A stretch of 61,049 nt of DNA from contig JAILBP010000287.1 of NCBI GenBank assembly GCA_024680835.1, positions 1 to 61,049 of the forward strand, written 5' to 3'. The notes beneath the pieces were generated by a model. The model saw nothing but the letters and a program-made list of their open reading frames with translations, ran no database searches and had not been told where the DNA came from. Shown here one piece after another: positions 26,905 to 42,361 of this stretch. The translations under genes were made by a program, and so were the position numbers. Position 1 is the stretch's first letter, and every line of letters begins with the position of its first letter. The DNA comes from Lachnospiraceae bacterium. Lineage in GTDB: Bacteria; Bacillota; Clostridia; Lachnospirales; Lachnospiraceae.

Positions 26905-29643
26905 TTACAGTTTTGTAAAAAACAGCAATCCGAAGGTTCCCGGTCCACAGTTGGCAGCTATGGCAGGCGAAGCCTTCTGAACATAAACATTATCGAATTC
27001 TGCGTACTGTGCGGCTTTCTGCTGCACCCACTCAAGTTCCTTATTCGTCATGCCCACATAGGTTATGAACAGAATCTCTTTGTCTATCTCACCGGGGACA
27101 TCAAAAACCGATGCTATATACCGCTCCCATGCATGCTCCCTGGAACCGAAGAAAACTCTCGAAACATCCATCTTCCCTTTTTTCAGGCTTATGATGGGAT
27201 GTATCATAAAGGCTTTTCCCAGTCTTCCGGTAACCTCCGAGATCTGCTTTTGTCTAACGAGGAAATCCAGTGTATCCACTATAAAGCTTGTGTGGATATG
27301 ACTCTTCATCTTTTCGAGTCGTGGCAGAATATCCTCGATCTTCATGCCTCCCGCCGCAAGTTTTGCCGCTTCTATAGCCATAAGTCCCTGACCGCCGGAC
27401 AGATGTCCCGAATCCACAACAGTCACATTTCCGAAGTTCTGTGCCGCCTCCATAGCCATGTGACAACCGCTGTGTTCCACCCTGCGGGAGATGGAAATAT
27501 GCAGAATATTGTTGGCATCATCAAGCTGATTGCTGAAAAAAGTCTCGTGATCTTCTTCGGAAGGCGCCTCCGTCTGTACTGTGACATTGGGATTTCTCAT
27601 GTATGCCAGAAGACCGTCAGTCTCGATCTCCAATTCGTCCTTGAAAAGACCGTCATCAGTCCTCACCATATGAGGTATTACCGTAATATTGTATTTTTTT
27701 CGTAAGGAAGCAGGAACATCAGCCACACTCTCGGTGGTTACTTTTACCATCACCTTCTTTTGATGATCCCTGATCCATGCTTTACTCTCTTCCGCAAGCT
27801 CTCTTCCGCCACCGAATACAGTGATCAGATTCCTCGGAAGCATACGGTATACCATATCCTCAAGTTCTTCTCCGGTCACCGGCTTTGTCAGATATCCGTC
27901 AAAACCTTCCTTTTCGTACATGGCAGCCACATCCGCACCGGTGTTAGCCGTCAGAGCCACGATCCTCGAATCACGGCAGAACCCGCCTGTCTGTTCCTTA
28001 ATGGCATGCATGCATTCTATGCCGTCCATACCGGGCATCTTATGATCCATGAGTATAAGATCATAGTGCTGCTCCACTGTCTTTTTCAGGGCTTCTGCAC
28101 CGGATATCACGGTACAGACCTGTACCTTGGTACACTTTAACAGCTTCGTGACAACCATTAGATTGGCAGAAGTATCATCCACCACCAGAATCTTTGCCTC
28201 AGGTGCTTCAAAAGATTCCACATGGGTGTAGGCTTTACCGCTTCGGTGCCTGTCTTCCATATCAAGCTCACCCAAAGGCACATCCGATGCCACAACCTGC
28301 GGTATTTCTATCACAAATGTGGAACCCTTGGTGTAGACACTGTTGACGGTGATCTTTCCGCCCATAAGATCCACAAACTGCTTGACTATGGACAGCCCCA
28401 GCCCGGTACCCTCTATATATTTGTTTTTCTCGGTGTCCACCCTCTTAAAAGCAGTGAAAAGATGAGGAATACTCTCTTTTCTGATACCCATTCCGGTGTC
28501 GGATACGGTATATGATACACGAGCCGTACCGTCCTCCCCTTTCTCGCACTGGATGGTCAGTCTGACATAACCCTCGGATGTGTACTTTATGGCATTATTC
28601 ACTACATTGATGAGGATCTGCTTGATACGCATCTCATCGCCTATGAGCTCCGACGGAAGCTCCGGTGAGACATCCACATGAAATGCCAGATTTTTCTCTT
28701 TTGCACGGATCCACAGCATACCCACAATATCGGACAGCATGTCTCCCGTGCGGTATTTGGTCACATTCAGCTCCATCTGCCCCGACTCAAACTTTGACAT
28801 ATCCAGTATGTCATTGATAAGATGCAGCAGCATATGGCTTGCAGCCTGGATGTTCTGAGCGTCCTCATTGATCTCCTCCGAGGCGTCCTCCCTTAGGATC
28901 ATCTCGTTTAAGCCTATTATGGTGTTGATGGGAGTCCGGATCTCATGGCTCATGTTGGAGAAGAATCTGTTCTGGGAATCGTTAAGCCTGCTGATCTCTT
29001 CCTTCTGTTCCTCCTGGATCACAAACCTCTCCATCACGTTGTATTTGTAATAATATACTACGATCCCGAGGAAAAGCTGTATTCCCGCAAAAACAAAAAA
29101 ATCAGTCAGATTGGCATTTTTGAAAGCATTTTTTGCTCCGTCCTCCAGGAACATAGACACAACCAGCAGGTCCGATATGATGGAAAAGATTATGTAAACT
29201 CTTACATCGATGAACTGGCAGAAAGGTATGCAGATCAGTACCACCATGTATATCGTCGCATCCATATGACCCAATGACAGATAATCCATATAGCTCATGC
29301 GCATGCCCCACCACAAAAGCAGCAGGACGATAAAAGCGTTTATCGTAGGTAAAATACGGTATCGTTTGTCAAACTGCCTGCCTACATATAAGATAACCGC
29401 CTCATCGATCATCATACCCACAAGCATTACGATATAATATATCCTGAATGTGGACATCAGGCCCTCTCCCTTGTAGGTCTCCGGCAATATATATGATGCC
29501 ACCATAAACAGGACTATAATGAAAGCTATCAGAGGACAGGCGACCAGTGAAATCCTGTAGGCATCAAAAATACAGCCCTTCCTGATCTTCTCATAATTGG
29601 GATTTCTCTTTTGAAAAAAGATAAAATCGATCAGCTTTCTCAC
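26905..29643 (-). CDS. Hybrid sensor histidine kinase: ~6 TM - HisKA - HATPase_c - REC - C-terminal DegV-like domain
   Basis: 912 aa. It has the H-box FFSNMSHEIRTPINTIIG, G-boxes DTGMGI / GTGLGLSIV, and a receiver KILVVDD...DLILMDHKMPGMDG...LTA...KP. The last 283 aa are DegV-like (see the next feature). Its start overlaps the upstream HK gene by 4 nt. Confidence 0.9.
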   Translation of the reverse strand: MRKLIDFIFFQKRNPNYEKIRKGCIFDAYRISLVACPLIAFIIVLFMVASYILPETYKGEGLMSTFRIYYIVMLVGMMIDEAVILYVGRQFDKRYRILPTINAFIVLLLLWWGMRMSYMDYLSLGHMDATIYMVVLICIPFCQFIDVRVYIIFSIISDLLVVSMFLEDGAKNAFKNANLTDFFVFAGIQLFLGIVVYYYKYNVMERFVIQEEQKEEISRLNDSQNRFFSNMSHEIRTPINTIIGLNEMILREDASEEINEDAQNIQAASHMLLHLINDILDMSKFESGQMELNVTKYRTGDMLSDIVGMLWIRAKEKNLAFHVDVSPELPSELIGDEMRIKQILINVVNNAIKYTSEGYVRLTIQCEKGEDGTARVSYTVSDTGMGIRKESIPHLFTAFKRVDTEKNKYIEGTGLGLSIVKQFVDLMGGKITVNSVYTKGSTFVIEIPQVVASDVPLGELDMEDRHRSGKAYTHVESFEAPEAKILVVDDTSANLMVVTKLLKCTKVQVCTVISGAEALKKTVEQHYDLILMDHKMPGMDGIECMHAIKEQTGGFCRDSRIVALTANTGADVAAMYEKEGFDGYLTKPVTGEELEDMVYRMLPRNLITVFGGGRELAEESKAWIRDHQKKVMVKVTTESVADVPASLRKKYNITVIPHMVRTDDGLFKDELEIETDGLLAYMRNPNVTVQTEAPSEEDHETFFSNQLDDANNILHISISRRVEHSGCHMAMEAAQNFGNVTVVDSGHLSGGQGLMAIEAAKLAAGGMKIEDILPRLEKMKSHIHTSFIVDTLDFLVRQKQISEVTGRLGKAFMIHPIISLKKGKMDVSRVFFGSREHAWERYIASVFDVPGEIDKEILFITYVGMTNKELEWVQQKAAQYAEFDNVYVQKASPAIAANCGPGTFGLLFFTKL
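26908..27756 (-). other. DegV-like (FakB-type fatty-acid-binding) domain fused to the C-terminus of the hybrid kinase
   Basis: Residues 630-912 read VKVTTESVADVP..L.KKYNITVIP..V......FKD...I....L...M......QTEAPS...H.ISIS...SG....A.EAA....NVTVVDSGHLSGGQGLMAIEAAKLAAGGMKIEDILPRLEKMKSHIHTSFIVDTLDFLVRQKQIS...G....I.PIISL..GKM....K..G...A........I....VG......E.........V.....SPAIAANCGPGTFGL. This matches the canonical DegV pattern (I.TDS.ADLP, TSQPS, LSSGLSGTYQSA, V.DS...S.GQG.LV..AA.L...G.S.EEI, F.VDTLEYL.KGGRIS, H.GPG..G) along its full length. Confidence 0.8.
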
Positions 29644-33264: not shown

Positions 33265-33437
33265 AACTCCCCTCCAAATTATATGCCCCTGCATCATAAC
33301 GTAAAAAAATCCTCTTTATTTTATCATACCCCATAAATAAAAAAAAGCCCGTATTATAATTGACAGCAACTATTTTTTAGGTTAGTATGGATGAGCGTGT
33401 GGTCGTATTGACCGGGACAATATCAGGGAGGTTTAAG

Positions 33438-33788
33438 ATGGCAGAGAATAAAGATTATAAGGTATTGGTTGATGGATTTAATAATGAAGAAGAAGAGGAC
33501 GACATGGAAGATCTCAGAGTCACTCTGGATATCGGTGACGGCAAAGAGATCGAGTGCGGAATCCTGACGATCTTTGATCTCGGAGACGGCAGCGACCAGG
33601 ATTACATCGTTCTGGTACCTGTCGACGAGGACGGCGATTACCTTGAGGAGACAGACATATACATCTACAAATACTTTGAAGATGAAAACGGAGAACCCTC
33701 CATCGAAATGCTGGATGATGACGAGGAGTTCGACAAGGTCAATGCCCGCTTCGAGCAGCTCATGGACGAAGCGGATGACGAGGATTGA
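33438..33788 (+). CDS. DUF1292-family small acidic protein
   Basis: The start is taken at ATG 33438, with GGGAGG 7 nt upstream. The protein is 116 aa and very acidic. The motif ECGILTIFDLG..DYIVLVPVDEDG.......IYIYKY.EDENGEP.IE...DDEEFD.V matches my memory of DUF1292. It is the only convincing plus-strand gene in the window. Confidence 0.7.
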   Translation: MAENKDYKVLVDGFNNEEEEDDMEDLRVTLDIGDGKEIECGILTIFDLGDGSDQDYIVLVPVDEDGDYLEETDIYIYKYFEDENGEPSIEMLDDDEEFDKVNARFEQLMDEADDED

Positions 33789-33797
33789 TAAAAGTCC

Positions 33798-35600
33798 TCA
33801 CTTATTCAAAAATCTTTCCAGAAACGGGGACGGATGGCTGTCAGAATACATGAACAGATCATCCTTTGCCCTTGTCATGGCAACATAGAAAAGCCGTCTT
33901 TCCTCTTCGATCTCGGCGGGGAGAACGGCTTTTTTGTATGGAATCACGCCCTCCACGCACTCCGGCAGGAACACCGCGGAATACTCCAGCCCCTTGGCAC
34001 CGTGATAGGTAGATAAGAACACACCGTCATCAGTGCTCCTGTTATGCGTATCTCTTCTCATGGCATTCTTTAATTCTTCGATTCCTCTCAAAAAAGACGA
34101 AATGTCCGTATATTCCTTTGCCACTTCGGATAACCGGTCAAGATTCTTTATCCTGTCGGCGGGATCCGTTCCCGATTTCCTGCACTCATCGGAAATATAA
34201 CCTTCGTATCCTATTCCTTTTCTGATAAAGTTGATGGCGGCAAAGGGCGATAGGCGTTTCAGCATGTCAAGATCATCAAATAACTGACATACGGAATCCT
34301 TAAGCCTTTCCCTTGTACATTTCTTCAACAGCATATCCCTTGTCACCACAGCTTCTGTCAGCATATCCCTCGAGATATAGCGCACAGGTCTGTTCATGAT
34401 GCAGAGGAAATCCCCACGCTTCTTATCTCCCTGCGAGAGCACAAGGTATGTCAAAACATCCTTTATCTCCCTGTTATCAAATATATCGAATATCCTCTCC
34501 CTGGAACAGAAAGGGATCTGCGCACGCATGAGCATGCCTGCCAACAGCGCGCTCTGTCTGTTGGTCCTGTACAAAACACAGATATTCCTGTATTCCGTGC
34601 CAGCCTCCTTCAGTTCCCTGATCCTTTTTATGATATCGATATTCTGCCTGTAGATCCCGTCATAAACGGCGATCTCGACTTTGCCTCCGGCGCCGCGCAC
34701 TGCTTTTGCATTCTTTTCAAAACGCTCCCTGTTGTCACTTATCACAATGGACGCAGCCTTTACGATCTCCTCCCTGCTCCTGAAGTTTTCTCCCAGCCTG
34801 TAGATCTTTACTCCGGCAATCTCCTTTGTAAATCTGTTGAGTATTCCCGGCTTAGCGCCTCTGAAACCGTAAATGCTCTGATCGTCATCCCCCACCATGA
34901 AAAGATTTCCGCTCTCCCCTGCCAACATCATGATGATGCGGTATTGGAGCTCATTCATGTCCTGTGACTCATCTACCAGAATATACCTGAATTTATCCTG
35001 CCATGCTTTGAGCGCTTTGGGGTTCGATCTGAAAAGTCTGAAGGTCTCCAGCAGCATATCGTCAAAATCGTACAGCCTGTTGTCCTTCAGCCTTTTGTCA
35101 TATTCAGTGAAAATCTTTACAAACCTGTCTCTGTCCATACATTTGGACGTGTAGGAAAAAATATCGGTATCGCTGTTTTTTACAACACTGATCTCATTCA
35201 GTATATCTCCGAAAAACTCATTTTCCGTACCGGAAGTTATGACCTCGTTTCCCACGGCATCCCTTATGAAATTGTACTTATCCTCCACAGTCAGTATGTT
35301 ATCCCTGCCCAGATCAAAGGCGTGCTGTAATATGGTAAAAAACACACTGTGAAAGGTCCCGAAAGAGACCAGACTGTCCCTGCCGGCAGACATAGCTTTA
35401 TAACGGAGCCTCATCTCCGTCGCGGCCGCTTTTGTAAAGGTTACCACCAGTATGTTGTCTTCTCTTATACCCTGTGAATTGACGAGTGAATGGATCCTCG
35501 CCGTGATGACTGCAGTCTTACCGCTGCCGGGTCCCGCCAGTACAAGTGCGGGACCGCCTGCATGCGATATGGCCTGTCTCTGTGAATCAGAAAAAATCAT
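33798..35600 (-). CDS. SF1 UvrD/PcrA/Rep-family DNA helicase (short, 600 aa)
   Basis: All helicase motifs are readable: Q-motif SDSQRQAI, I AGPGSGKT, Ia VVTFTKAAATEM, II ILVDESQDMN, III VGDDDQSIYGFRGA, IV ENFRS, V TYHGAKGLEY, VI LFYVAMTRAKDDL. A GGAGAA RBS lies inside the end of the upstream gene. Confidence 0.9.
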   Translation of the reverse strand: MIFSDSQRQAISHAGGPALVLAGPGSGKTAVITARIHSLVNSQGIREDNILVVTFTKAAATEMRLRYKAMSAGRDSLVSFGTFHSVFFTILQHAFDLGRDNILTVEDKYNFIRDAVGNEVITSGTENEFFGDILNEISVVKNSDTDIFSYTSKCMDRDRFVKIFTEYDKRLKDNRLYDFDDMLLETFRLFRSNPKALKAWQDKFRYILVDESQDMNELQYRIIMMLAGESGNLFMVGDDDQSIYGFRGAKPGILNRFTKEIAGVKIYRLGENFRSREEIVKAASIVISDNRERFEKNAKAVRGAGGKVEIAVYDGIYRQNIDIIKRIRELKEAGTEYRNICVLYRTNRQSALLAGMLMRAQIPFCSRERIFDIFDNREIKDVLTYLVLSQGDKKRGDFLCIMNRPVRYISRDMLTEAVVTRDMLLKKCTRERLKDSVCQLFDDLDMLKRLSPFAAINFIRKGIGYEGYISDECRKSGTDPADRIKNLDRLSEVAKEYTDISSFLRGIEELKNAMRRDTHNRSTDDGVFLSTYHGAKGLEYSAVFLPECVEGVIPYKKAVLPAEIEEERRLFYVAMTRAKDDLFMYSDSHPSPFLERFLNK

Positions 35601-35606
35601 TAAGAA

Positions 35607-36761
35607 TCATTCTCCGGTGATCCGGTCTGTCATATACAAAATATCTTTGATCTCTTTTGTATACTCCGGATTCGTGTTTAAAGCCTGTTTCAGTTTATAT
35701 CGTTTTTTTGCCATCTCGGCATCGATATTCGAGATGTCTTCCCTGAGTTTCTGCCTCTTTAAGTAAAGCTGATGCTTTCTTTCGACCATATCCCCGGGGT
35801 TGACCAATATGTATGGGATCTCGAGCCATGCTCTTGAATCATACAGTTTGTATTTTGAAAGCTGCTTTACGAGCTTTTCGTTGTAAAAATCCAATTCCTG
35901 ATTGGTTTCGAGATATTTTGTGCGCTCCCTGCAAGCCTCCTGATAATCCTCAAGCTGTGCGCTGAAATCCCTGTAATCTTTTACATTGTAGGCTCTGCGC
36001 TCATAATCAACGGCGTTGGTGATATTGACGTATTTGATCTTGACTTTGTTCAGCAGTTCTATGGCGCGCTTTGCGTTTTTGGTTGCTATCCTGATCTCGG
36101 CGTCGTCATTCTGATAACGGACCAGTATCACAAAACCCGCTATTATAGCCAATATGGCGGTGATAAGCCAGCCGTAGGTGATGTCCGCTTCAAAACCGAG
36201 ATACATCACTATGAGCACTATCATGATAAAAGAAAAAATACCGAACACGATCATTGCTGCGTTTTTCAGTATCCGCTTCTCATCCTGCATGTTATCACGG
36301 TGCATGATCCACTGCAGTTTTTCTCCCTCGAGATAAGACATATCCCGCTTTACCGTATCCTGGTATTTTTCGTTTTCTTCCAGTTTTTTGAGTGCGGGCA
36401 AAAGCTCGTCCTCATATTTGTCAAATAATATCATCTGGGAATCGGATATCTTTTTGGTGCGGTTTATATATCTGTCTCTTACAGACATATGATTCACCAG
36501 TCTCTCAGCCGTCTCCCTGATGTATGCAAACTCGTTGTCGGGCAGATTTGTCAAGGTCTCACAGTCAGTGATATACGCCGTCACATCGGAGTATTCCCGC
36601 TTGAGATCAGAGTATTGCTCAGCCAGCTCTGTGAGTTCTTCACAGGCACCCAAGATTCCTCTGTCGCGTACGACCGGTACATTCGCCTCTATGCGCTCTA
36701 TATGTTCTTCGAAATCCTTTTCCTTTTTTTTTCTCTTTTTTCCGAAAAACCAAAATGCCAT
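35607..36761 (-). CDS. Hypothetical membrane protein: coiled coil - TM hairpin - coiled coil
   Basis: 384 aa. Two adjacent TM helices lie mid-protein (AAMIVFGIFSFIMIVLIVMYLGF; GWLITAILAIIAGFVILV), flanked by K/E/R-rich heptad-like segments. The GAGGA RBS is embedded in the last codons of the upstream gene, with a 3-nt gap. Confidence 0.75.
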   Translation of the reverse strand: MAFWFFGKKRKKKEKDFEEHIERIEANVPVVRDRGILGACEELTELAEQYSDLKREYSDVTAYITDCETLTNLPDNEFAYIRETAERLVNHMSVRDRYINRTKKISDSQMILFDKYEDELLPALKKLEENEKYQDTVKRDMSYLEGEKLQWIMHRDNMQDEKRILKNAAMIVFGIFSFIMIVLIVMYLGFEADITYGWLITAILAIIAGFVILVRYQNDDAEIRIATKNAKRAIELLNKVKIKYVNITNAVDYERRAYNVKDYRDFSAQLEDYQEACRERTKYLETNQELDFYNEKLVKQLSKYKLYDSRAWLEIPYILVNPGDMVERKHQLYLKRQKLREDISNIDAEMAKKRYKLKQALNTNPEYTKEIKDILYMTDRITGE

Positions 36762-36764
36762 ACT

Positions 36765-37544
36765 TTAGTCCTCGCAGGCGACAAGATATTTCTCATTTAT
36801 GTCATCAAAAGGCTGATCTGCATTTTTCCGGGCTTCCATCAATGATGCTGTGTGTATCGAACTGGCTCTTTTGACTTCTTTTTCGATGTGTTCGTAACTG
36901 GTCTTGAACAATGTGTTAAGCTCTTTTAACAATGAGTTATCCTCGGCAAGTACAGCGCAATCCACCGCTTCGTTGAGAGATTCAACCCTGTGATTTGACC
37001 TGTATGCCGCCACAAAACAGTTATACGCCTCATGAAAATCAAAAAATCTTGCGTAAGCCACGCCCTGATTATGCATGATATCTCCCACTACGGAAGCAGA
37101 TGATGTGCGGGTATCCCCCACATCCGACAAAAGTTTTTTGTATGTTAAAATGGCTTTTTTGAGCATTCCCTTGCTTAAGAAATCATCTGCCAGCCTCTTT
37201 CCCAGTTCCAGCGGTGACATATGATCGAATTTATTGAGGCTCAAATTCAGTTTGCCCGCCTGAACCTCCGAAAGATAACCGCTGGCCTCCTCGATAGGTT
37301 TGAAGAAATCTACCAGAGGCGCCTTTGACTTAAGCTTTTTATCCAACTCATCGGCCAACTCCGCATTCTCGAGATTTTTTCTGATCCAGCCGGTAAAATC
37401 AGCGTTCATGAAATCGTCCCTGTCGATGAAAACCGCACCGGCAGCATAAAACAAAAGCTCTTCCAGAGAATAAATATTCAGTTTTCCGCTTCTGATGTAG
37501 AATGGCTGTTCAGCCGATCTGCACTTACACAATACAAGGCTCAC
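36765..37544 (-). CDS. Hypothetical soluble, mostly helical protein (possible TPR-like C-terminal half)
   Basis: The ORF track starts at GTG 37553, but GGAGAG abuts that codon. The GTG at 37544 has 8-nt spacing and is preferred, giving ~259 aa. I recognise no catalytic motif. GVAYARFFDFHEAYNCFVAAY resembles a TPR-type helix pair. Confidence 0.7.
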   Translation of the reverse strand: MSLVLCKCRSAEQPFYIRSGKLNIYSLEELLFYAAGAVFIDRDDFMNADFTGWIRKNLENAELADELDKKLKSKAPLVDFFKPIEEASGYLSEVQAGKLNLSLNKFDHMSPLELGKRLADDFLSKGMLKKAILTYKKLLSDVGDTRTSSASVVGDIMHNQGVAYARFFDFHEAYNCFVAAYRSNHRVESLNEAVDCAVLAEDNSLLKELNTLFKTSYEHIEKEVKRASSIHTASLMEARKNADQPFDDINEKYLVACED

Positions 37545-37572
37545 GCTAATCACTCTCCAAAAATACTACGGA

Positions 37573-38811
37573 TCATACCGAAACCAGAGCTTCCCAGACT
37601 TTTCCGCTGGAAGGTGCGATCTCTCCGAATCCAAGGTCTTTGATTATCAATCTCACTTCGTGATCACTGACAGGCTTTGCCATAATGTCGATCCTGGTGG
37701 TTTTGTTTTCCCTCTCCGGCAACCCGCGCAGCAGAAAGTTCTCTATCTTGGCATCGCGCCTGTCCGGCAGATGGATCCAAAAATCGACAGCATTCTCTCC
37801 GTCCAGTATCACCTGACAGTTTCCGGAAGACTCAAACCATCTCCCTCCCGCCGATACCAAAGTCAGAAAGCTTGTATTTCCGCCGTCATTAACTTTGATA
37901 CTGACATTGAATTTCATGGTGTGGAGACCCATATAGACATATCCCCACTTAACTGCACCGCCCGAAATCCTGGCGGCATAGCTGGCACCTTTTGAGTACA
38001 GATTCTGTCCCTGAAATGCCCTTCGTCCTCTGCACAGAAGCTTTAAGGATTCCTTCATCCACCCCTCGGAAAAACCGTCTCCAACAAGGTATGCGGCAGA
38101 ATATATATCCTTGCCGAACATCTGCGTTATAGCATCCGAAAAGCAGTCATCCGGTGCATAAGCAATATTACCGAAATCCCTCTCCTCAATATCCACAAGC
38201 TGGGGATATGACTTCTGAAGCCGTTTTAATGTCATCCCCTTTAATATCTCATTTTCGTACTCAAACAGTGCTATATTATTCTGTGAAAGCTCCACCGGCT
38301 GACTCAGGGCATAGTAATAAAAACACTCCCTGTGATCCATTATATGCACCCTGAGATCCGGTATCTCCAGCAATTCTATGACCTTATCGAAGGTCTCTAT
38401 CACATTTAAGGTCAGAGTCTCCACCGTAAGCACCAGCTGACCTGCGGTGTGATCCGGCATCATGGTCTCGCACATGCGCACAAGACGTTTTATGAATCTT
38501 GCCAGAAGCCTTGTGTATTCATAGGCCTCTCCGTCTACAAAAGCCTTCTGCCCCTTGCATGCACGGCTCAGTATCTTGTCATAGAGCTCACCGAGACCGG
38601 CTCTCGAAAACCTTAAGGCCTCATCACCGTAAGAAAAACGTTTTTCCTCTTTCTGATAGCACATATATAAGGGGATGGAAAACTCCTCCCTCCCCGGTGT
38701 TATGCTGAGCGTCGAGGGATTGTCCAGAGAATCCGTTGTAAAACTGATCATGGCATTATCTCCGGAGAAATCGAGACCTATATAAAGTTTTTTCTTGTCT
38801 TTATTAAACAT
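37573..38811 (-). CDS. Hypothetical protein with degenerate Hsp70/actin (ASKHA)-fold motifs and a beta-rich C-terminal domain
   Basis: 412 aa. The ordered motifs are: KKLYIGLDFSGDNAMISF (cf. Hsp70 IGIDLGTTNS), QLVLTVE (cf. AVITVPA), VHIMDHRECFYYYAL (cf. IINEPTAAALAYGL), IALFEYENEILKG (cf. VFDLGGGTFDVS), AYLVGDGFSEGWMKE (cf. LLVGGSTRIP) and NLYSKGASYAA (cf. NPDEAVA.GAA). A GAGGG RBS is present. Confidence 0.75.
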   Translation of the reverse strand: MFNKDKKKLYIGLDFSGDNAMISFTTDSLDNPSTLSITPGREEFSIPLYMCYQKEEKRFSYGDEALRFSRAGLGELYDKILSRACKGQKAFVDGEAYEYTRLLARFIKRLVRMCETMMPDHTAGQLVLTVETLTLNVIETFDKVIELLEIPDLRVHIMDHRECFYYYALSQPVELSQNNIALFEYENEILKGMTLKRLQKSYPQLVDIEERDFGNIAYAPDDCFSDAITQMFGKDIYSAAYLVGDGFSEGWMKESLKLLCRGRRAFQGQNLYSKGASYAARISGGAVKWGYVYMGLHTMKFNVSIKVNDGGNTSFLTLVSAGGRWFESSGNCQVILDGENAVDFWIHLPDRRDAKIENFLLRGLPERENKTTRIDIMAKPVSDHEVRLIIKDLGFGEIAPSSGKVWEALVSV

Positions 38812-38849
38812 CTTTTCCCTCGGTCATACAGTTAAAAATCGTTACTACT

Positions 38850-38920
38850 CACAGCTGTCTTAAGGTGTATTCCGGCACGATCACATACATATACACTGCT
38901 GTCTTAAGATGTATTCCGGC
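38850..38920. repeat. Two 27-bp imperfect direct repeats (24/27 identical, 44-bp period) in the 112-nt spacer between the 1145-aa and 412-aa genes
   Basis: CACAGCTGTCTTAAGGTGTATTCCGGC lies at 38850-38876 and CACTGCTGTCTTAAGATGTATTCCGGC at 38894-38920 (plus strand). Confidence 0.85.
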
Positions 38921-38923
38921 CTG

Positions 38924-41900
38924 TCATAACATGTTAAATAATTTACCTGTGGTCTCGCTCATGGCCCTGGTCTTGATAAGGTTTTCACCTGTCTGTATAC
39001 CGTAGAACAGATTGTTCGGAACGCTCTTAAGTGAAGAGGCATATTCATTTCTGCCATATCTCACGTTTCGTCCCTCATTATCCCTGAAATAATACATCAA
39101 TTCCCCGGTACCGGCCGATAAGAGCACTGCCGTATGATATCCGTACAGAGTACGTTGTACTACGAGTTTTTTTACACCACTGTCATCAAACCTGTACATG
39201 AGTTCCACGGCTTCGCTGTCTGAAATGCAGGTAACGATATACCTGTCGTACAGATGATATCTGACCTGAAACTCTTCGGGCAGATCCTTGTAAAAATCAA
39301 AATAGATCTTCCTGTCGGTAAAATAATACAGCAATTCATCCAATATATGTTTTGCGGTATTTCCGCTCACACCGGTCTCGCTGTAATATCTGATCAGCGC
39401 AAGCTTTGCATAGTCAGGCAACTCTTCCCCGTCCATGAAGAATTTTTCGAGCTCCATAAAAACATCCGCATCCACACTCATCCTTTTTACAATAAACCTG
39501 TAAGCGAAATAGAATGTGTATGCCTTCTCTATTATGATGTTATGTTTGCCCTTGAGATACCTGCTGAAGAGCTTTCCGGCAAAATGTTTCATCTCCCCGG
39601 TAAAGATCATCATATACAGAATCTTCTCTGTCATGATGGTAACGTCTATGCCGTTTTTGTCGGCTTCACGCCAGACAGCGTACAGCTGGTCAACCGTACC
39701 TTCCATGTAAACACAGAGGTATTTGAATATGGCATAACGCTTGCTGCCGTTGGAAACAGCATATATCATAAGCCTTGCCAGCTTCTCGTCATATTCCCTT
39801 ACACCGTTGACCTTGTAGAGTATGATCTCTTCGAGTTCCTCGAGCTTTATGGATCCGGGTCCGAAGTATTCAACAAATTCATACGCCCTGTCATAGAAGC
39901 GGTTGTATACCAGATTTGAGGCGTACCTGCTCCTCACCGACTCATCCAGCTTTTTCATGTCCATCATGGACAGAAGCTCATCGTCACTGTAACCGCCCGC
40001 TGTATTTTTTATGACTGCGGGGGTCAGTTTCTCTTTGTACTCGGAATTGATGTGGGGAGATTCCAGCAACAGCTTCAATATCTCATTTTCCTGATCGTTG
40101 AGTCCCTGAAAGCTTGATTTTCCGAGCATGTGATGAAGCGCGTAAGGCAGCTTCACAGAGCCGGAATTAAGAGCGCTTCTGACATATCTTGCAGGATTAA
40201 ACAGTCTCTCAAGTTCACAGGCGTCATTATCCACAAAAACCCTGCCATCACGATCACCAAGCACGGTTACATACTCTCCCGGATAGACCGGTATGAAAGC
40301 TATACCGTTATCGATCTGATATGTAAATATCTCAGACAGACTGTCGCTTATGACATGGACAACCTTCGCCGCCGGATTCGTACATACCAGCCGGTTCATA
40401 TACAGAGTTCTGGACAGGGCATCAAAAAACTCCTTATCCATCTCGAAATCTTCGAGAGTTGCATTGTAAAGAACCGAAAGATTGTCGTCGATCAGCCCTT
40501 CCTTCATCTCTCTCAATACAAAATCATGGATCTGATCGCGGTAGTTATCATATGTCTCATGATCAGAATCTTTCGCAGCCAGGATATTCACATACAGAGC
40601 TGCTTTCTGTCTCGCAGTCAGTGAGTTATTGTAGCGGAAATAAATGGCAACCTGCCTCGGTATCTCCTCCCTGTGTGTCTTTGACAGAGAAGCAACAAAG
40701 TACTCATAAAGACCGCCAAGTTTAATATCCTGTTCGATGGCTCTCCTGTAAAGCTCATGATCCGCTTCACGTCTGAGATCGCCTTTTATCCTGTACTGGC
40801 ATACAGCTCCCAAGGTATCTTTCGACGGAAACATCTCATAGCATCCCGTGATGATGCGGTCCACCAGTTTACTGTATCCTGCGGACACCCCGTACACGGA
40901 CACCAGCTGGTCGCAAAGAGCCTTTCCTATGACTTTCTTTTTTACACCCCAATTTAATATCTTCAGCATCTCCGGCTTGAGATCAGTGAGATAGAACGGG
41001 TATTTGTTTAATATCTTGCAGGCATTCGCATAAAAAAACGGGCTGTTCTCTCCGTCCTTTATCCACCTGATTATCATGGAGAGCCTTATCTTTTCATCCA
41101 ATCCCGGGGCATCCGGCAACAGCATGCAGTATCTGATAAAAGAATCATCCATGTTATTGGCATAAATATCCGAGATCTGGGCAAATATAGTCTCCCGCTT
41201 TTTCTCGTCAGTTTCCACAAGGTAAAGCAGACAGCCAAACAGCATGCTGTCCCTCATGTCAAACTTGTCCGTACGGGTCTTCAGGGCATCCACAACAGTC
41301 CTGAAATCCTGCATCTGCTTATTGATCATCATGACATAGGCCTTGTAGAGTTCATGCCTTACCGAACCGCTGTTATAGGACTTTATCAGTTCGATAGTCT
41401 TTGTGACCCAGGCGCCGGTTACCATGATCCCCGCCAGGTATTCCTCATACATGACAGACAGTCTCAGGTTAAACTTTTTATCTCCCGTCGGGTCTTCTCT
41501 TGTCAACGTCACCTCGGATACAACGGAGACATTGACCGTTATAACTTCCCTCTGGAAGTTGTTTTCCAATACGATGCGCCCGGTATTTTCTCCTTTATAC
41601 AAACGCTCTCTGTCTATAGTGAAAGACAGCCTGTACTCTCCTGCTACAAAATCGTCTTCTCTGATATATTCTTTGTCGAGATGTACAAAATCAGAGTCCG
41701 TAGATGCCTTTATGCCGATCTTTCCGAACTCTTTTTTTCGCAGCAGTATACTCTCCGTATACTCATCGCCCAAAAGCTCAGAGAACCTTATAACATTGCG
41801 ATCCACAGTGAACATAGCCCGCTTTTTGTAGCTGGCGGCAATGAGGAATTCCTCAACGCTCCGTATCTTTCTGTAATAAAGCCTGTTCTTGGTATTAGTA

Positions 41901-42361
41901 AGCAGCATGGAGAAGGCATCGCTCTTATATATTGCCTCGGCCTCTTTGGGATTGATCTCATAAAGCCGGGTAAAATCCGACAGCGAAGCTATCTCGCCGG
42001 TAGACGCAATGATCTTTTCTCCTATGACCCTCGCACTGAAATTGATCTGAAACTCACCGCCGTTAGTAACGATAAAAAAGCTTCCCGTATCCGTATCACC
42101 CACCTTAAGACTCTGGGCACGGTACACGAAGCTTATCTTTACATTGCCGTTTGCAACAGAGTTTCGCAATTCGGTCACGTTATGATTAAAACATAAAATA
42201 TCCGCTTCCAGAACGGAATCACCCTGAGTGCTGATAACGAAATCACCCTCGTACGATCCGCCAAAAGGTACATCAAATACAAGGCTTTCCGCAGAAAGTT
42301 CTACGGAAGGCCTTTCCATCTCGATATTACCCTTTGCCATTTCCTCAATCTGTCTGATCAT
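38924..42361 (-). CDS. Very large hypothetical protein (1145 aa): two N-terminal beta-sandwich-like modules followed by a long alpha-helical-repeat-like body
   Basis: It is a long uninterrupted ORF with normal local codon usage and a GGGGAG RBS. There is no signal peptide, TM helix, P-loop or other catalytic motif visible by eye. Residues ~19-113 and ~181-280 share a repeated alternating-hydrophobic beta pattern, each ending in an N..F...I.(F/V).(A/V).V-type strand. Confidence 0.8.
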   Translation of the reverse strand: MIRQIEEMAKGNIEMERPSVELSAESLVFDVPFGGSYEGDFVISTQGDSVLEADILCFNHNVTELRNSVANGNVKISFVYRAQSLKVGDTDTGSFFIVTNGGEFQINFSARVIGEKIIASTGEIASLSDFTRLYEINPKEAEAIYKSDAFSMLLTNTKNRLYYRKIRSVEEFLIAASYKKRAMFTVDRNVIRFSELLGDEYTESILLRKKEFGKIGIKASTDSDFVHLDKEYIREDDFVAGEYRLSFTIDRERLYKGENTGRIVLENNFQREVITVNVSVVSEVTLTREDPTGDKKFNLRLSVMYEEYLAGIMVTGAWVTKTIELIKSYNSGSVRHELYKAYVMMINKQMQDFRTVVDALKTRTDKFDMRDSMLFGCLLYLVETDEKKRETIFAQISDIYANNMDDSFIRYCMLLPDAPGLDEKIRLSMIIRWIKDGENSPFFYANACKILNKYPFYLTDLKPEMLKILNWGVKKKVIGKALCDQLVSVYGVSAGYSKLVDRIITGCYEMFPSKDTLGAVCQYRIKGDLRREADHELYRRAIEQDIKLGGLYEYFVASLSKTHREEIPRQVAIYFRYNNSLTARQKAALYVNILAAKDSDHETYDNYRDQIHDFVLREMKEGLIDDNLSVLYNATLEDFEMDKEFFDALSRTLYMNRLVCTNPAAKVVHVISDSLSEIFTYQIDNGIAFIPVYPGEYVTVLGDRDGRVFVDNDACELERLFNPARYVRSALNSGSVKLPYALHHMLGKSSFQGLNDQENEILKLLLESPHINSEYKEKLTPAVIKNTAGGYSDDELLSMMDMKKLDESVRSRYASNLVYNRFYDRAYEFVEYFGPGSIKLEELEEIILYKVNGVREYDEKLARLMIYAVSNGSKRYAIFKYLCVYMEGTVDQLYAVWREADKNGIDVTIMTEKILYMMIFTGEMKHFAGKLFSRYLKGKHNIIIEKAYTFYFAYRFIVKRMSVDADVFMELEKFFMDGEELPDYAKLALIRYYSETGVSGNTAKHILDELLYYFTDRKIYFDFYKDLPEEFQVRYHLYDRYIVTCISDSEAVELMYRFDDSGVKKLVVQRTLYGYHTAVLLSAGTGELMYYFRDNEGRNVRYGRNEYASSLKSVPNNLFYGIQTGENLIKTRAMSETTGKLFNML

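What the first reader, a model, noticed from the sequence alone, without database searches (positions are those of the whole stretch)
33798..42361. Five-gene cluster of unknown function ending in a UvrD-type helicase (best candidate for an undescribed system)
Seen in sequence:
- Five co-directional genes encode products of 1145, 412, ~259, 384 and 600 aa.
- The intergenic gaps are 112, ~28, 3 and 6 nt.
- The ribosome-binding sites of the last two genes sit inside the final codons of the preceding genes (GAGGAC-TAA-agt-ATG; GGAGAA-TGA-ttctta-ATG). This argues for one translationally coupled operon.
- Only the last product has recognisable enzymology, a complete SF1 UvrD/PcrA motif set.
- The other four are a giant protein with two N-terminal beta-sandwich modules and a helical body, a protein with a degenerate Hsp70/actin-fold motif series, a helical (TPR-like) protein, and a coiled-coil/TM-hairpin/coiled-coil membrane protein.

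Inference: an ATP-driven nucleic-acid motor wired to a large scaffold, a pseudo-ATPase and a membrane anchor is the architecture of many recently found defence or genome-maintenance systems. It does not match those I know. It lacks the OLD/TOPRIM partner of Gabija, and I see no HamA-like nuclease, methylase or PLD.

Caveats: there are no integrase, transposase or tRNA flanks, and no compositional break that I can see by eye. It could therefore equally be a conserved lineage-specific housekeeping module. I vaguely recall DUF5716/DUF5717 labels on proteins like the 412-aa and 1145-aa ones in Lachnospiraceae, but I cannot verify that here.
Basis: partly seen in the sequence, partly recalled or inferred. 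Interest (0 to 1): 0.8.

Follow-up and report, generated by a model that had tools for sequence, protein, structure and literature searches.

The report
Conserved Lachnospiraceae Hsp70-like scaffold operon
Four of the five genes form an uncharacterised operon kept throughout the gut family Lachnospiraceae (giant scaffold, lidless Hsp70-like protein with degenerate ATP loops, TPR partner, membrane anchor), while the UvrD-type helicase is only a neighbour and nothing points to phage defence.

Summary
The five ORFs, their lengths, the gaps of 112, 28, 3 and 6 nt, and the RBS overlaps are all real. They lie on the minus strand.

- **Families:** Pfam confirms DUF5717 (1145 aa) and DUF5716 (412 aa).
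- **Conserved unit:** in 80 reference genomes plus 14 other contigs, A-B-C is always present. The membrane protein D is present in 72 of 74 informative near relatives and in two deeper clades.
- **Helicase:** it lies within 10 kb in only 21 of 80 loci and abuts D in two. It is usually separated from D by gltX, inside a housekeeping synteny block (gltX, uvrD, DUF1292, GH13).
- **DUF5716:** the AlphaFold2 model (pLDDT 91) matches DnaK/Hsp70 (nucleotide-binding domain plus beta substrate-binding domain, Foldseek E 1e-19). It has no lid, and both phosphate loops are degenerate.
- **DUF5717:** Ig-Ig, TPR solenoid, beta-sandwich, solenoid, beta-sandwich. No enzyme domain was found.
- **Fusions:** B and C are fused into one protein in many lineages.
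- **Mobility and defence:** no plasmid hit and no genuine phage hit. Only the generic UvrD helicase and one marginal D match hit defence models; A, B and C hit none. There is no compositional break, and the flanks are core-chromosome genes.

Best reading: a vertically inherited, membrane-tethered scaffold built around an Hsp70-derived protein that probably does not hydrolyse ATP. Its cellular role is unknown and nothing has been published on it.

The parts
38924..42361 (-). Gene A: DUF5717 giant scaffold protein, 1145 aa. Layout: Ig-like 1 (20-113), helical insert (127-175), Ig-like 2 (183-280), TPR-like solenoid (292-649), beta-sandwich (655-719), solenoid (724-1034), beta-sandwich (1040-1102), C-terminal helices.
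   Evidence: - Pfam PF18984 E 5e-177 and PF18983 E 2e-44.
- AF2 pLDDT 84, pTM 0.59.
- Foldseek gives only local matches, to tandem Ig/ASH proteins and to TPR scaffolds such as Ctr9, the SKI complex and IFT-A, with TMq <= 0.14 and no enzyme.
- No PDB sequence hit, even with a profile.
- Invariant residues cluster at 102-257, including E170-E171-F172-L173.
- Present next to B in all 78 informative reference loci.
38812..38923 (-). A-B spacer of 112 nt with a 23-nt direct repeat, GCCGGAATACA(T/C)CTTAAGACAGC x2, and the RBS GAGGGA of B.
   Evidence: - Sequence read.
- No stable RNA fold (z = +1.1).
- The A-B gap has a median of 20 nt in 78 other loci, and the repeat is not found there. It is a peculiarity of this genome.
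37573..38811 (-). Gene B: DUF5716, 412 aa. A lidless Hsp70-like protein: nucleotide-binding domain (NBD, ~1-290) plus beta-sandwich substrate-binding domain (SBD-beta, ~300-411), with degenerate phosphate-binding loops.
   Evidence: - Pfam PF18980.
- AF2 pLDDT 91, pTM 0.86.
- The top 50 Foldseek PDB hits are all Hsp70-superfamily proteins (DnaK, BiP, Hsc70, Ssz1, Ssb, Hsp110), best E 9e-20 and TMq up to 0.57.
- A profile of the family weakly aligns residues 7-114 to DnaK 4-104 (E 0.17).
- The phosphate-1 loop reads GIDL[D/N/S][D/G][D/K] instead of GIDLGTT. The phosphate-2 hairpin reads LF[D/E]Y without GGG.
- No Pfam HSP70 hit in any of 32 members.
36765..37544 (-). Gene C: 259 aa from GTG 37544 (262 aa from GTG 37553). 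It has a conserved N-terminal domain (~1-100), a TPR core (~113-200) and a variable helical tail.
   Evidence: - Alignment of 33 orthologues.
- TPR_2 matches in 33 of 33 members.
- The family profile hits consensus TPR proteins, E 1e-40.
- Fused to the C-terminus of B in many lineages.
35607..36761 (-). Gene D: 384 aa membrane anchor. Basic N-terminus, helical cytoplasmic region, poorly conserved two-TM hairpin (~163-218), and a strongly conserved C-terminal cytoplasmic region (LLNKVKIKYVNITNAVDY ... RRQKLR).
   Evidence: - Alignment of 29 orthologues.
- Hydropathy.
- No significant Pfam or PDB family.
- Present in 72 of 74 informative reference loci.
- Present in deep clades at HMM E 1e-74 to 1e-84.
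- Absent in L006, L008, L083, L094 and the HtpG clade.
33798..35600 (-). Gene E: UvrD/PcrA/Rep-like SF1 helicase core, 600 aa, without the PcrA C-terminal domain. In this genome it abuts D and is probably co-transcribed, but it is NOT part of the conserved module.
   Evidence: - Pfam UvrD-helicase + UvrD_C.
- NCBIfam PcrA scores 370 bits against a cut-off of 911, and Rep and UvrD are also below cut-off.
- Best PDB relatives are UvrD, PcrA and Rep, E 5e-74.
- Synteny analysis.

Best explanation
**Shown**
- Genes A-B-C, usually with D, are one conserved, vertically inherited operon. All named records that carry it are Lachnospiraceae or mislabelled bins with Lachnospiraceae synteny. It sits among core-chromosome genes.
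- The helicase E is only a syntenic neighbour. In this genome it has come to abut D.
- B has the Hsp70 architecture (nucleotide-binding domain plus beta substrate-binding domain). It lacks the helical lid and the glycine/threonine phosphate loops.
- A is a 1145-aa all-scaffold protein made of Ig, TPR solenoid and beta-sandwich modules.
- C is a TPR protein that is fused to B in many lineages.
- D is a two-TM hairpin protein whose conserved parts are the soluble regions on either side of the hairpin.

**Inferred**
- The products form one stable complex on the inner face of the membrane. D is the tether, with both termini cytoplasmic. That topology rests on the even TM count and the basic N-terminus and was not tested.
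- C is bound directly to B.
- B acts as a nucleotide-independent or very slow peptide clamp rather than a cycling chaperone, as Ssz1 does in the eukaryotic ribosome-associated complex. It would hold a linear segment of a partner or client in its beta-sandwich cleft.
- A offers large repeat surfaces for recruiting other proteins.

The most likely role is a housekeeping assembly or quality-control platform for some membrane-proximal process, not nucleic-acid defence. Which process is unknown.
For: **Conservation and order**
- B is accompanied by A in 78 of 78, C in 80 of 80 and D in 72 of 74 informative loci from 80 different reference genomes, always in the order A-B-C-D.
- Gaps are short: median A-B gap 20 nt. 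C-D gaps are 1-35 nt in the loci I checked. Overlapping reading frames occur in L081 and L082.
- The same set recurs in deeper clades: L088/L090 and L091-L093.
- Identities of A, B, C and D fall together across loci, as expected for joint vertical descent.

**B-C link**
- At least 6 of the best 150 family representatives are B-C fusions.
- 54 of the 120 best relatives of one fusion protein are 692-790 aa.

**Folds**.

**Degenerate ATP loops**.

**Housekeeping character**
- Flanks in different clades are nfnAB-like genes, a class I/II aminotransferase, gltX, valS, mgsA, htpG and purB/purA.
- A strongly conserved sigma-A-type promoter lies upstream of A in 27 of 70 loci.
- No GC break.
- No plasmid copies.
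- No PHROG hits for A-D, and no PADLOC hits for A, B or C.

**Family size**: 1748 clusters at 50% identity with E <= 1e-3. About 453 reference species carry a relative.
Against: - No physical interaction was tested, because no multimer prediction was available.
- Loss of ATPase activity is inferred from loop sequences only. The adenosine-side motif (YLVGDGF) and the Asp of GIDL are conserved, so nucleotide binding may persist.
- The AF2 model of A has pTM 0.59, so its inter-domain geometry is uncertain. Foldseek matches to A are local only.
- 'Assembly or quality-control platform' is an argument from architecture. No client, phenotype or expression datum supports it.
- D is dispensable in several lineages, so membrane tethering cannot be essential to the core function.
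- In this genome the 6-nt D-E junction, with an RBS inside D, does suggest co-translation with the helicase.
Confidence: 0.5

Rival explanations
1. Active specialised chaperone system. B is a working, if divergent, Hsp70 ATPase. C is its TPR co-chaperone and links it to HtpG or DnaK, in the manner of Hop/Sti1. A is a dedicated giant client or client adaptor, and D localises the machine.
For: - Hsp70 fold with an intact SBD-beta.
- TPR partner, fused in many lineages.
- htpG lies immediately upstream and co-directional in a deep clade whose B proteins have diverged to 31-36% identity.
- The GIDL Asp and the adenosine motif are conserved.
Against: - Phosphate loop 1 is variable and acidic. Phosphate loop 2 lacks every glycine.
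- There is no lid.
- No J-domain or GrpE-like gene was seen in any locus examined.
- In L082 a clean intrinsic terminator and a TATAAT box separate htpG from A, so that adjacency may be plain synteny.
- htpG is not nearby in the other 80 loci or in the window.
Confidence: 0.2
2. This is a five-gene system in which the UvrD-type motor is wired to the scaffold, the pseudo-ATPase and the membrane anchor, for defence or genome maintenance.
For: - Tight D-E junction in the window, with no terminator-like site called there.
- The same abutment in L001 and L027.
- A helicase is somewhere within 10 kb downstream in 21 of 80 loci, spread over several sub-clades.
- E scores well on GajB models, E 3e-84.
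Against: - In 12 loci the housekeeping gene gltX is identified between D and the helicase. The helicase keeps its own conserved partners downstream: a convergent DUF1292 gene (15 of the 80 loci) and then a GH13 enzyme.
- The helicase is absent from the neighbourhood in most loci and in all deeper clades examined.
- GajB-model hits are generic for UvrD-family proteins, and PcrA and Rep models score higher.
- No GajA/OLD, nuclease, methylase or other effector is present.
Confidence: 0.08
3. A helicase-independent conflict system. An Hsp70-like sensor joined to helical repeats, as in CnuD of type III CoCoNuT systems, triggers D, a two-TM membrane-disrupting effector of the SLATT or holin type.
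For: - CoCoNuT CnuD proteins are Hsp70-like NBD/SBD units with degenerate ATPase motifs, fused or adjacent to HEAT-like repeats (PMC11090510, read). That resembles B plus C.
- D gives a marginal hit to a PADLOC SLATT model, E 1.3e-3.
- Some D orthologues give weak holin or DUF2207_C hits over the TM hairpin.
Against: - No McrB GTPase, McrC/DUF2357, nuclease or other effector is present.
- The TM hairpin of D is its least conserved part, while its soluble regions are highly conserved. That is the reverse of what a pore-forming effector should show.
- The position in the core genome is conserved across genera, with a conserved sigma-A promoter.
- No plasmid hit and no genuine phage hit.
- One locus per genome among the 80 reference genomes fetched.
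Confidence: 0.07

Closest known systems
Ssz1 in the eukaryotic ribosome-associated complex (RAC, Ssz1-Zuotin)
   Same: - It is an Hsp70-family protein with NBD plus SBD-beta and a truncated or absent lid.
- From established knowledge of RAC, it does not work as a cycling ATPase. It serves as a structural subunit whose SBD holds a partner segment.
- RAC entries (6sr6, 5mb9, 7x3k) are among the Foldseek hits to B, E 4e-17 to 3e-14.
   Different: - The RAC partner is a J-domain protein on the ribosome. Here there is no J domain. The partners are a TPR protein, a 1145-aa Ig/TPR scaffold and a membrane anchor.
- B is bacterial, is smaller (NBD of about 290 aa) and shows no sequence-level relation to Hsp70. 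Pfam HSP70 gives no hit.
Canonical DnaK/Hsp70 with TPR co-chaperones (Hop/Sti1, SGTA, Tah1)
   Same: - Hsp70 fold for B.
- TPR partner. Sti1, Tah1 and SGTA appear among weak profile hits to C.
- htpG is adjacent in one clade.
   Different: - No lid, no GTT or GGG phosphate loops, and no J-protein or GrpE.
- The TPR matches are generic. An EEVD-type ligand could not be tested.
- A and D have no counterpart in the canonical system.
CnuD of type III CoCoNuT (McrBC-related) systems, PMC11090510
   Same: An Hsp70-like NBD/SBD with degenerate ATPase motifs combined with alpha-helical repeats, sometimes as a fusion.
   Different: - CoCoNuTs are defined by an McrB-like GTPase and an McrC/DUF2357 protein with coiled coils and nucleases. 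None of these is present.
- The genomic behaviour here is core and vertical, not that of an island gene.
Gabija (GajA-GajB)
   Same: E matches GajB profile HMMs, E 3e-84.
   Different: - There is no GajA (OLD-family ATPase/TOPRIM nuclease).
- E matches PcrA and Rep models better.
- E belongs to a gltX-uvrD-DUF1292 synteny block.

Membership tests
Pfam DUF5717 / DUF5716 | Match to PF18984 + PF18983 (A) and PF18980 (B) above the gathering score | tested here: met
   591, 152 and 316 bits against cut-offs of 25, 25 and 34.7.
Hsp70 (for B) | Two-lobed actin-like NBD followed by a beta-sandwich SBD | tested here: met
   AF2 pLDDT 91. All top 50 Foldseek PDB hits are Hsp70-superfamily chains aligned over about 500 columns, E down to 9e-20.
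Hsp70 (for B) | Phosphate-1 (DLGTT) and phosphate-2 (DLGGGT) ATP-binding loops | tested here: not met
   Across 32 family members the loops read GIDL[D/N/S][D/G][D/K] and LF[D/E]Y, with no conserved Gly or Thr.
Hsp70 (for B) | Alpha-helical lid (SBD-alpha) after the beta-sandwich | tested here: not met
   The protein ends at residue 412, right after the last strand (405-411).
Hsp70 (for B) | Sequence-level membership (Pfam HSP70 PF00012) | tested here: not met
   No HSP70 hit at E <= 1 in any of 32 members. There is only a sub-threshold profile match to the DnaK N-terminus, E 0.17.
Hsp70 system | Cognate J-domain protein or GrpE-type exchange factor | tested here: not met
   No DnaJ or GrpE Pfam hit in A, C or D, nor among the recurrent neighbour families I annotated. 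Genome-wide partners could not be examined.
TPR co-chaperone (Hop/Sti1 type, for C) | TPR repeats | tested here: met
   TPR_2 in 33 of 33 orthologues. Family profile against consensus TPR proteins, E 1e-40.
TPR co-chaperone (Hop/Sti1 type, for C) | Carboxylate clamp that binds an EEVD-type C-terminus of Hsp70 or Hsp90 | not testable with these tools
   - The conserved TPR residues are those of the general TPR consensus.
- B ends in W-E-Y-like residues, not EEVD.
- The adjacent HtpG proteins end in -GEE, -QDE or -KEE.
PcrA / UvrD / Rep equivalogs (for E) | NCBIfam equivalog score above cut-off, and the C-terminal domain present | tested here: not met
   PcrA 371 against 911, Rep 349 against 951, UvrD 314 against 1144. 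The match ends at profile position 608 of 725. E is a UvrD-family core helicase, not one of the named orthologues.
Gabija | GajA OLD/TOPRIM ATPase-nuclease next to the GajB helicase | tested here: not met
   No PADLOC or Pfam hit of that kind in A-D or in the flanks.
CoCoNuT / McrBC-type systems | McrB-like GTPase and McrC (DUF2357) partner | tested here: not met
   Neither Pfam nor PADLOC finds either in the five proteins or the flanks.
SLATT two-TM effectors (for D) | Significant match to SLATT models, with a conserved TM core | tested here: not met
   There is one marginal PADLOC hit, E 1.3e-3. No SLATT family appears among the 25 Pfam families listed for the 29 orthologues. The TM hairpin is the least conserved segment of D.
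Mobile or defence-island element | Integrase, transposase or tRNA flanks, a compositional break, or presence on plasmids or phages | tested here: not met
   - No tRNA and a flat GC profile.
- Housekeeping flanks.
- No plasmid hit.
- The three 'phage' hits I examined are bacterial scaffolds.

The most novel reading that the evidence does not exclude
A-B-C(-D) is a previously unrecognised core cell-biological machine of Lachnospiraceae. It would be a membrane-associated scaffold in which an Hsp70 has been converted into a non-enzymatic structural clamp. This clamp is permanently coupled to a TPR adaptor and to a giant protein with the 'solenoid plus beta-sandwich appendage' layout otherwise typical of eukaryotic scaffold and coat proteins. 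The machine would organise a membrane-proximal process such as envelope, division or flagellar assembly. On this reading it is neither a chaperone in the usual sense nor a defence system.
Probability: 0.25. Interest if true: 0.8.

Novelty: new variant of a known kind. Interest (0 to 1): 0.55.

Why it matters
- **Who carries it.** The operon is present in named Roseburia, Agathobacter, Blautia, Butyrivibrio, Pseudobutyrivibrio and Acetatifactor records. From general knowledge, several of these are among the most abundant butyrate producers of the human and animal gut.
- **How large the family is.** It comprises about 1750 clusters at 50% identity in metagenomes, yet I found no published function for it.
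- **What is new here.**
  - DUF5716 is an Hsp70 derivative without a lid and without phosphate loops.
  - It is recurrently fused to its TPR neighbour.
  - It always travels with a 1100-1300-aa Ig/TPR scaffold.

  Together these turn two 'DUF' labels into a testable hypothesis about a non-canonical use of the Hsp70 fold in bacteria.
- **What it prevents.** The helicase adjacency that drew attention is an accident of local synteny. Knowing this stops the locus being filed as a Gabija-like or other defence candidate.

Tried and rejected
- **Defence and phage libraries.** PADLOC and PHROGs on all five proteins gave only generic helicase hits for E and one marginal SLATT hit for D.
- **Named families.** NCBIfam found nothing for A-D.
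- **PDB by sequence.** Single proteins and family profiles of A, B, C and D gave nothing for A. B gave only a sub-threshold DnaK N-terminal match. C gave generic TPR matches, and D gave nothing.
- **Viral structures.** Foldseek of A against BFVD gave only local Ig/BACON and TPR/Sel1 matches, TMq <= 0.13.
- **Plasmids and phages.** tblastn of B found no plasmid hit. The three phage-collection hits I followed up are bacterial.
- **Literature.** Searches for the DUF names, Pfam and guessed InterPro accessions, and Hsp70-like/TPR/Lachnospiraceae terms found no paper on the cluster. The one paper containing 'DUF5716' (PMC8115291) has an unrelated title and I did not open it. The CoCoNuT paper supplied a partial analogue only.
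- **htpG as a fifth member.** I demoted this after finding a terminator between htpG and A in L082 and no htpG in the other 80 loci or the window.
- **A structured RNA or conserved repeat in the A-B spacer.** Rejected, because the fold is no better than shuffles and the repeat is absent elsewhere.
- **A flagellar or sporulation-type promoter.** By eye, 21 upstream regions showed no such motif. A conserved sigma-A-type promoter appeared instead. No systematic scan for alternative sigma consensus sequences was run.
- **Rfam and tRNA scans of the window.** Both were empty.

Full report
**1. Observation**

The window carries five co-directional ORFs on the minus strand:

| Gene | Coordinates | Length |
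|---|---|---|
| A | 38924-42361 | 1145 aa |
| B | 37573-38811 | 412 aa |
| C | 36765-37553 | 262 aa as listed |
| D | 35607-36761 | 384 aa |
| E | 33798-35600 | 600 aa |

- For C, the second in-frame GTG (37544) has a GGAGA box 9 nt upstream.
- GC content is flat across the region (0.44-0.47). There are no tRNA genes and no Rfam matches in the window.

**2. Context**

The window is core chromosome.
- *Upstream of A:* PBP, MurD, FtsW, FtsQ and FtsZ, then ArgRS, two CobW-family GTPases and an NfnAB-like pair (DHODB-type Fe-S protein plus GltD-like oxidoreductase).
- *Downstream of E:* a convergent DUF1292 gene, an HD-GYP response regulator, two hybrid histidine kinases, a GH13 enzyme, TraX, ComM, DprA, TopA, CodY and the start of the flagellar operon.

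No integrase, transposase or phage gene was seen among the ORFs I annotated.

**3. Family assignments**

- E has UvrD-helicase and UvrD_C domains.
- NCBIfam has no model for A-D. E scores well below the equivalog cut-offs for PcrA, Rep and UvrD, and its match stops at position 608 of the 725-position PcrA model. It is therefore a UvrD-family core without the C-terminal domain. Its best solved relatives are UvrD, PcrA and Rep.
- PADLOC and PHROGs have nothing for A, B or C. D gives one marginal SLATT hit, and E gives generic helicase hits.
- I found no paper on DUF5716 or DUF5717.

**4. What is conserved**

*Reference genomes.* A scan of one genome per GTDB species with a DUF5716 alignment found relatives in 453 stretches. 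I fetched the 80 best loci, each from a different assembly. In these loci:

| Gene | Present in |
|---|---|
| A upstream of B | 78 of 78 loci whose contig reaches that far |
| C | 80 of 80 |
| D | 72 of the 74 with enough downstream sequence |

- The order is always A-B-C-D. L006 and L008 truly lack D.
- Gaps are short. The median A-B gap is 20 nt, and C-D gaps are a few nucleotides to 35 nt in the loci I checked.
- Identities of the four proteins to the window fall in parallel from locus to locus. This fits joint vertical descent.

*Deeper branches.* These carry the same set:
- A-B-C-D between mgsA and valS, in L088 and L090.
- A, a B::C fusion, and D, in L091-L093. D is confirmed there at HMM E 1e-74 to 1e-84, with the same TM position.
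- A-B-C without D, in L083, in L094 and in a clade with the order htpG-A-B-C-purB-purA.

The invariable core is therefore A-B-C. D is ancestral and frequent but can be lost.

*Size of the family.* The DUF5716 family has 1748 clusters at 50% identity with E <= 1e-3 and 663 with E <= 1e-30.

**5. The helicase**

A UvrD homologue lies within 10 kb downstream of D in 21 of the 80 loci. It abuts D only in L001 and L027, as it does in the window. Elsewhere:
- In two loci a small CsoR-like gene intervenes.
- In 12 loci gltX is identified between D and the helicase. In L060 and L063 a gap of the same size (about 1.5 kb) has no ORF assigned.
- In three loci the helicase is more than 6 kb away.

In most helicase-bearing loci the helicase is followed by a convergent DUF1292 gene and then a GH13 enzyme and a further conserved gene. 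The same genes lie downstream in the window.

In other sub-clades D is followed by different genes:
- CsoR plus an Mrp/hydrogenase-like cluster.
- CsoR plus a chemotaxis receptor.
- A manganese-catalase-like gene.

In the deeper clades it is followed by valS, purB or transporters.

The helicase therefore belongs to a neighbouring housekeeping synteny block. It is not part of the module. In this genome it is probably co-transcribed with it, since no terminator-like site is called at the junction.

**6. Structures**

*B (DUF5716).*
- AlphaFold2 with a 32-sequence alignment gave pLDDT 91 and pTM 0.86.
- All top 50 Foldseek matches in the PDB are Hsp70-superfamily chains (DnaK, BiP, Hsc70, mortalin, Ssb, Ssz1 and Hsp110). 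They align over both the nucleotide-binding domain and the beta-sandwich substrate-binding domain. The best E is 9e-20 and TMq reaches 0.57.
- A profile of the family weakly and colinearly matches the DnaK N-terminus (E 0.17). Pfam HSP70 does not match any of 32 members.
- The protein ends right after the beta-sandwich, so it has no lid.
- In the family alignment the phosphate-1 loop is GIDL followed by variable, mostly acidic residues instead of GTT. The phosphate-2 hairpin is LF[D/E]Y with no glycine.
- The adenosine-side motif (YLVGDGF) and the end of the NBD (NLYSKGACYAA) are highly conserved.
- I infer weak or no ATP hydrolysis. This is not shown.

*A (DUF5717).*
- AlphaFold2 with 39 sequences gave pLDDT 84 and pTM 0.59.
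- The domain order is: two Ig-like sandwiches separated by a helical insert, a TPR-like solenoid, a third sandwich, a second solenoid, a fourth sandwich, and terminal helices.
- Foldseek gives only local matches, to tandem Ig/ASH proteins and to TPR scaffolds (Ctr9, the SKI complex, IFT-A, APC/C). No enzyme appears.
- The invariant residues of the family lie in the N-terminal Ig-helix-Ig part and include E170-E171-F172-L173.

*C.*
- It has a well conserved N-terminal domain of about 100 residues with no detectable relatives.
- This is followed by a TPR core found in all 33 orthologues scanned.

*D.*
- It has a basic N-terminus and long helical soluble regions.
- It has a single hydrophobic hairpin, which is its least conserved part.
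- No family matches significantly.

A, B and C have no hydrophobic segment.

**7. B-C fusions**

- Six of the best 150 family representatives are 684-745 aa long. Their extra C-terminal part is a full C protein. P0193 residues 422-619 align to window C residues 3-202 (E 2e-27). P0276 residues 446-713 match the C-family profile (hhalign probability 100%, E 1e-39).
- Among the 120 best relatives of P0276, 54 are 692-790 aa.
- In the fusions, C begins about 15-30 residues after the last strand of the SBD. That is where the lid follows in a canonical Hsp70.
- This is strong comparative evidence that B and C act together physically.

**8. Not mobile, not defence**

- B has no tblastn hit in 72,556 plasmids.
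- The five hits in the phage collection are 'UNVERIFIED: Bacteriophage sp.' scaffolds from one faecal virome study. The three I examined carry A-B-C-D with MgsA and ValS, or with gltX, uvrD and DUF1292, and are bacterial chromosome.
- In 27 of 70 loci from several genera, A is preceded at -62 to -134 nt by the same sigma-A-type promoter, TTGCnn-N17-AAATAGTTTATAAT. The background rate is 0.014 matches per 460 nt. The window lacks this promoter. There, A follows the gltD-like gene by 54 nt.

**9. Mechanism**

*Shown:* a conserved operon of four non-enzymatic proteins; the Hsp70 fold of B with degenerate loops and no lid; the TPR partner fused in many lineages; the giant repeat scaffold; the two-TM protein with conserved soluble parts.

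*Inferred:* one complex tethered to the inner face of the membrane by D. In it B works as a static peptide clamp, C is its fixed adaptor, and A is a recruitment platform. The closest functional analogue is Ssz1 in the ribosome-associated complex.

The biological process served is unknown. I put 0.5 on this overall reading. Within it:
- about 0.85 that A-B-C(-D) is the real unit and the helicase is not part of it;
- about 0.35-0.4 on the clamp-and-scaffold mechanism itself.

*Rivals:*
- An active specialised Hsp70 system, perhaps linked to HtpG (0.2). The htpG adjacency is weakened by a terminator in L082 and by the absence of htpG elsewhere.
- A helicase-independent conflict system resembling CoCoNuT CnuD plus a two-TM effector (0.07).

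**10. Novelty and score**

The families exist as DUF entries, but I found no description of the operon, the Hsp70 nature of DUF5716, the B-C fusions or the architecture of DUF5717. It uses known folds (Hsp70, TPR, Ig) in a combination that matches no described system. I therefore rate it a new variant of a known kind and give it interest 0.55. It is widespread in important gut bacteria and now testable, but it has no functional evidence, and the feature that made it look like a defence system has dissolved.

Noticed in passing
window 38812-38923 (minus strand): The A-B spacer holds a 23-nt direct repeat, GCCGGAATACA(T/C)CTTAAGACAGC x2, about 40 nt apart. It has no stable fold (z = +1.1). The repeat is unique to this genome, and the A-B gap elsewhere has a median of 20 nt.
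   Followed up: yes
L003-L076, 62-134 nt upstream of gene A (for example L024, L046, L051): A sigma-A-type promoter with an unusually conserved extended -10 region, TTGCnn-N17-AAATAGTTTATAAT. It is often followed by CTATTATA, which is palindromic with TATAAT. It occurs in 27 of 70 loci of several genera and may include an operator. It is absent from the window.
   Followed up: partly
L081, L082, L084-L087: In a deep clade that lacks D, htpG (Hsp90) lies immediately upstream of A and is co-directional, and purB and purA follow C. In L082 a clean intrinsic terminator and a TATAAT box lie between htpG and A.
   Followed up: partly
L088 (MT835486.1), L089 (MT835719.1), L090 (MT835988.1): These GenBank 'UNVERIFIED: Bacteriophage sp.' scaffolds from a human faecal virome study carry A-B-C-D together with MgsA and ValS, or with gltX, uvrD and DUF1292. 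They are bacterial (Lachnospiraceae-like) chromosome fragments, not phages.
   Followed up: yes
L006, L008, L046, L064; P0073, P0342: Records labelled Moraxellaceae, Oscillospiraceae, Thermoguttaceae, Bacteroidaceae, Muribaculaceae or Muribaculum carry this operon with typical Lachnospiraceae synteny. They are probably mis-binned or mislabelled assemblies.
   Followed up: no
window 33387-33788 (+): A very acidic DUF1292 protein (133 aa) converges on the helicase, with their stop codons 9 nt apart. A DUF1292 homologue lies in 15 of the 80 loci, in nearly all cases just downstream of the helicase. The helicase-DUF1292 pair may be a unit of its own.
   Followed up: partly
L001-L080 upstream of A; L083; L091: A divergently transcribed class I/II aminotransferase (~366 aa, HisC/CobD-like) sits directly upstream of A in 46 reference loci and in two deeper clades. 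The window has the NfnAB-like pair there instead.
   Followed up: no
window 26905-29643 (minus strand): A hybrid histidine kinase (HisKA, HATPase, REC) is fused to a C-terminal DegV fatty-acid-binding domain (912 aa). It lies next to a second hybrid kinase with an Hpt domain and an HD-GYP response regulator. This is an unusual sensor architecture.
   Followed up: no
L006, L008 (also L083, L094): D is genuinely missing although more than 9 kb of sequence follow C in L006 and L008. In L008 the helicase follows C after about 570 nt.
   Followed up: partly
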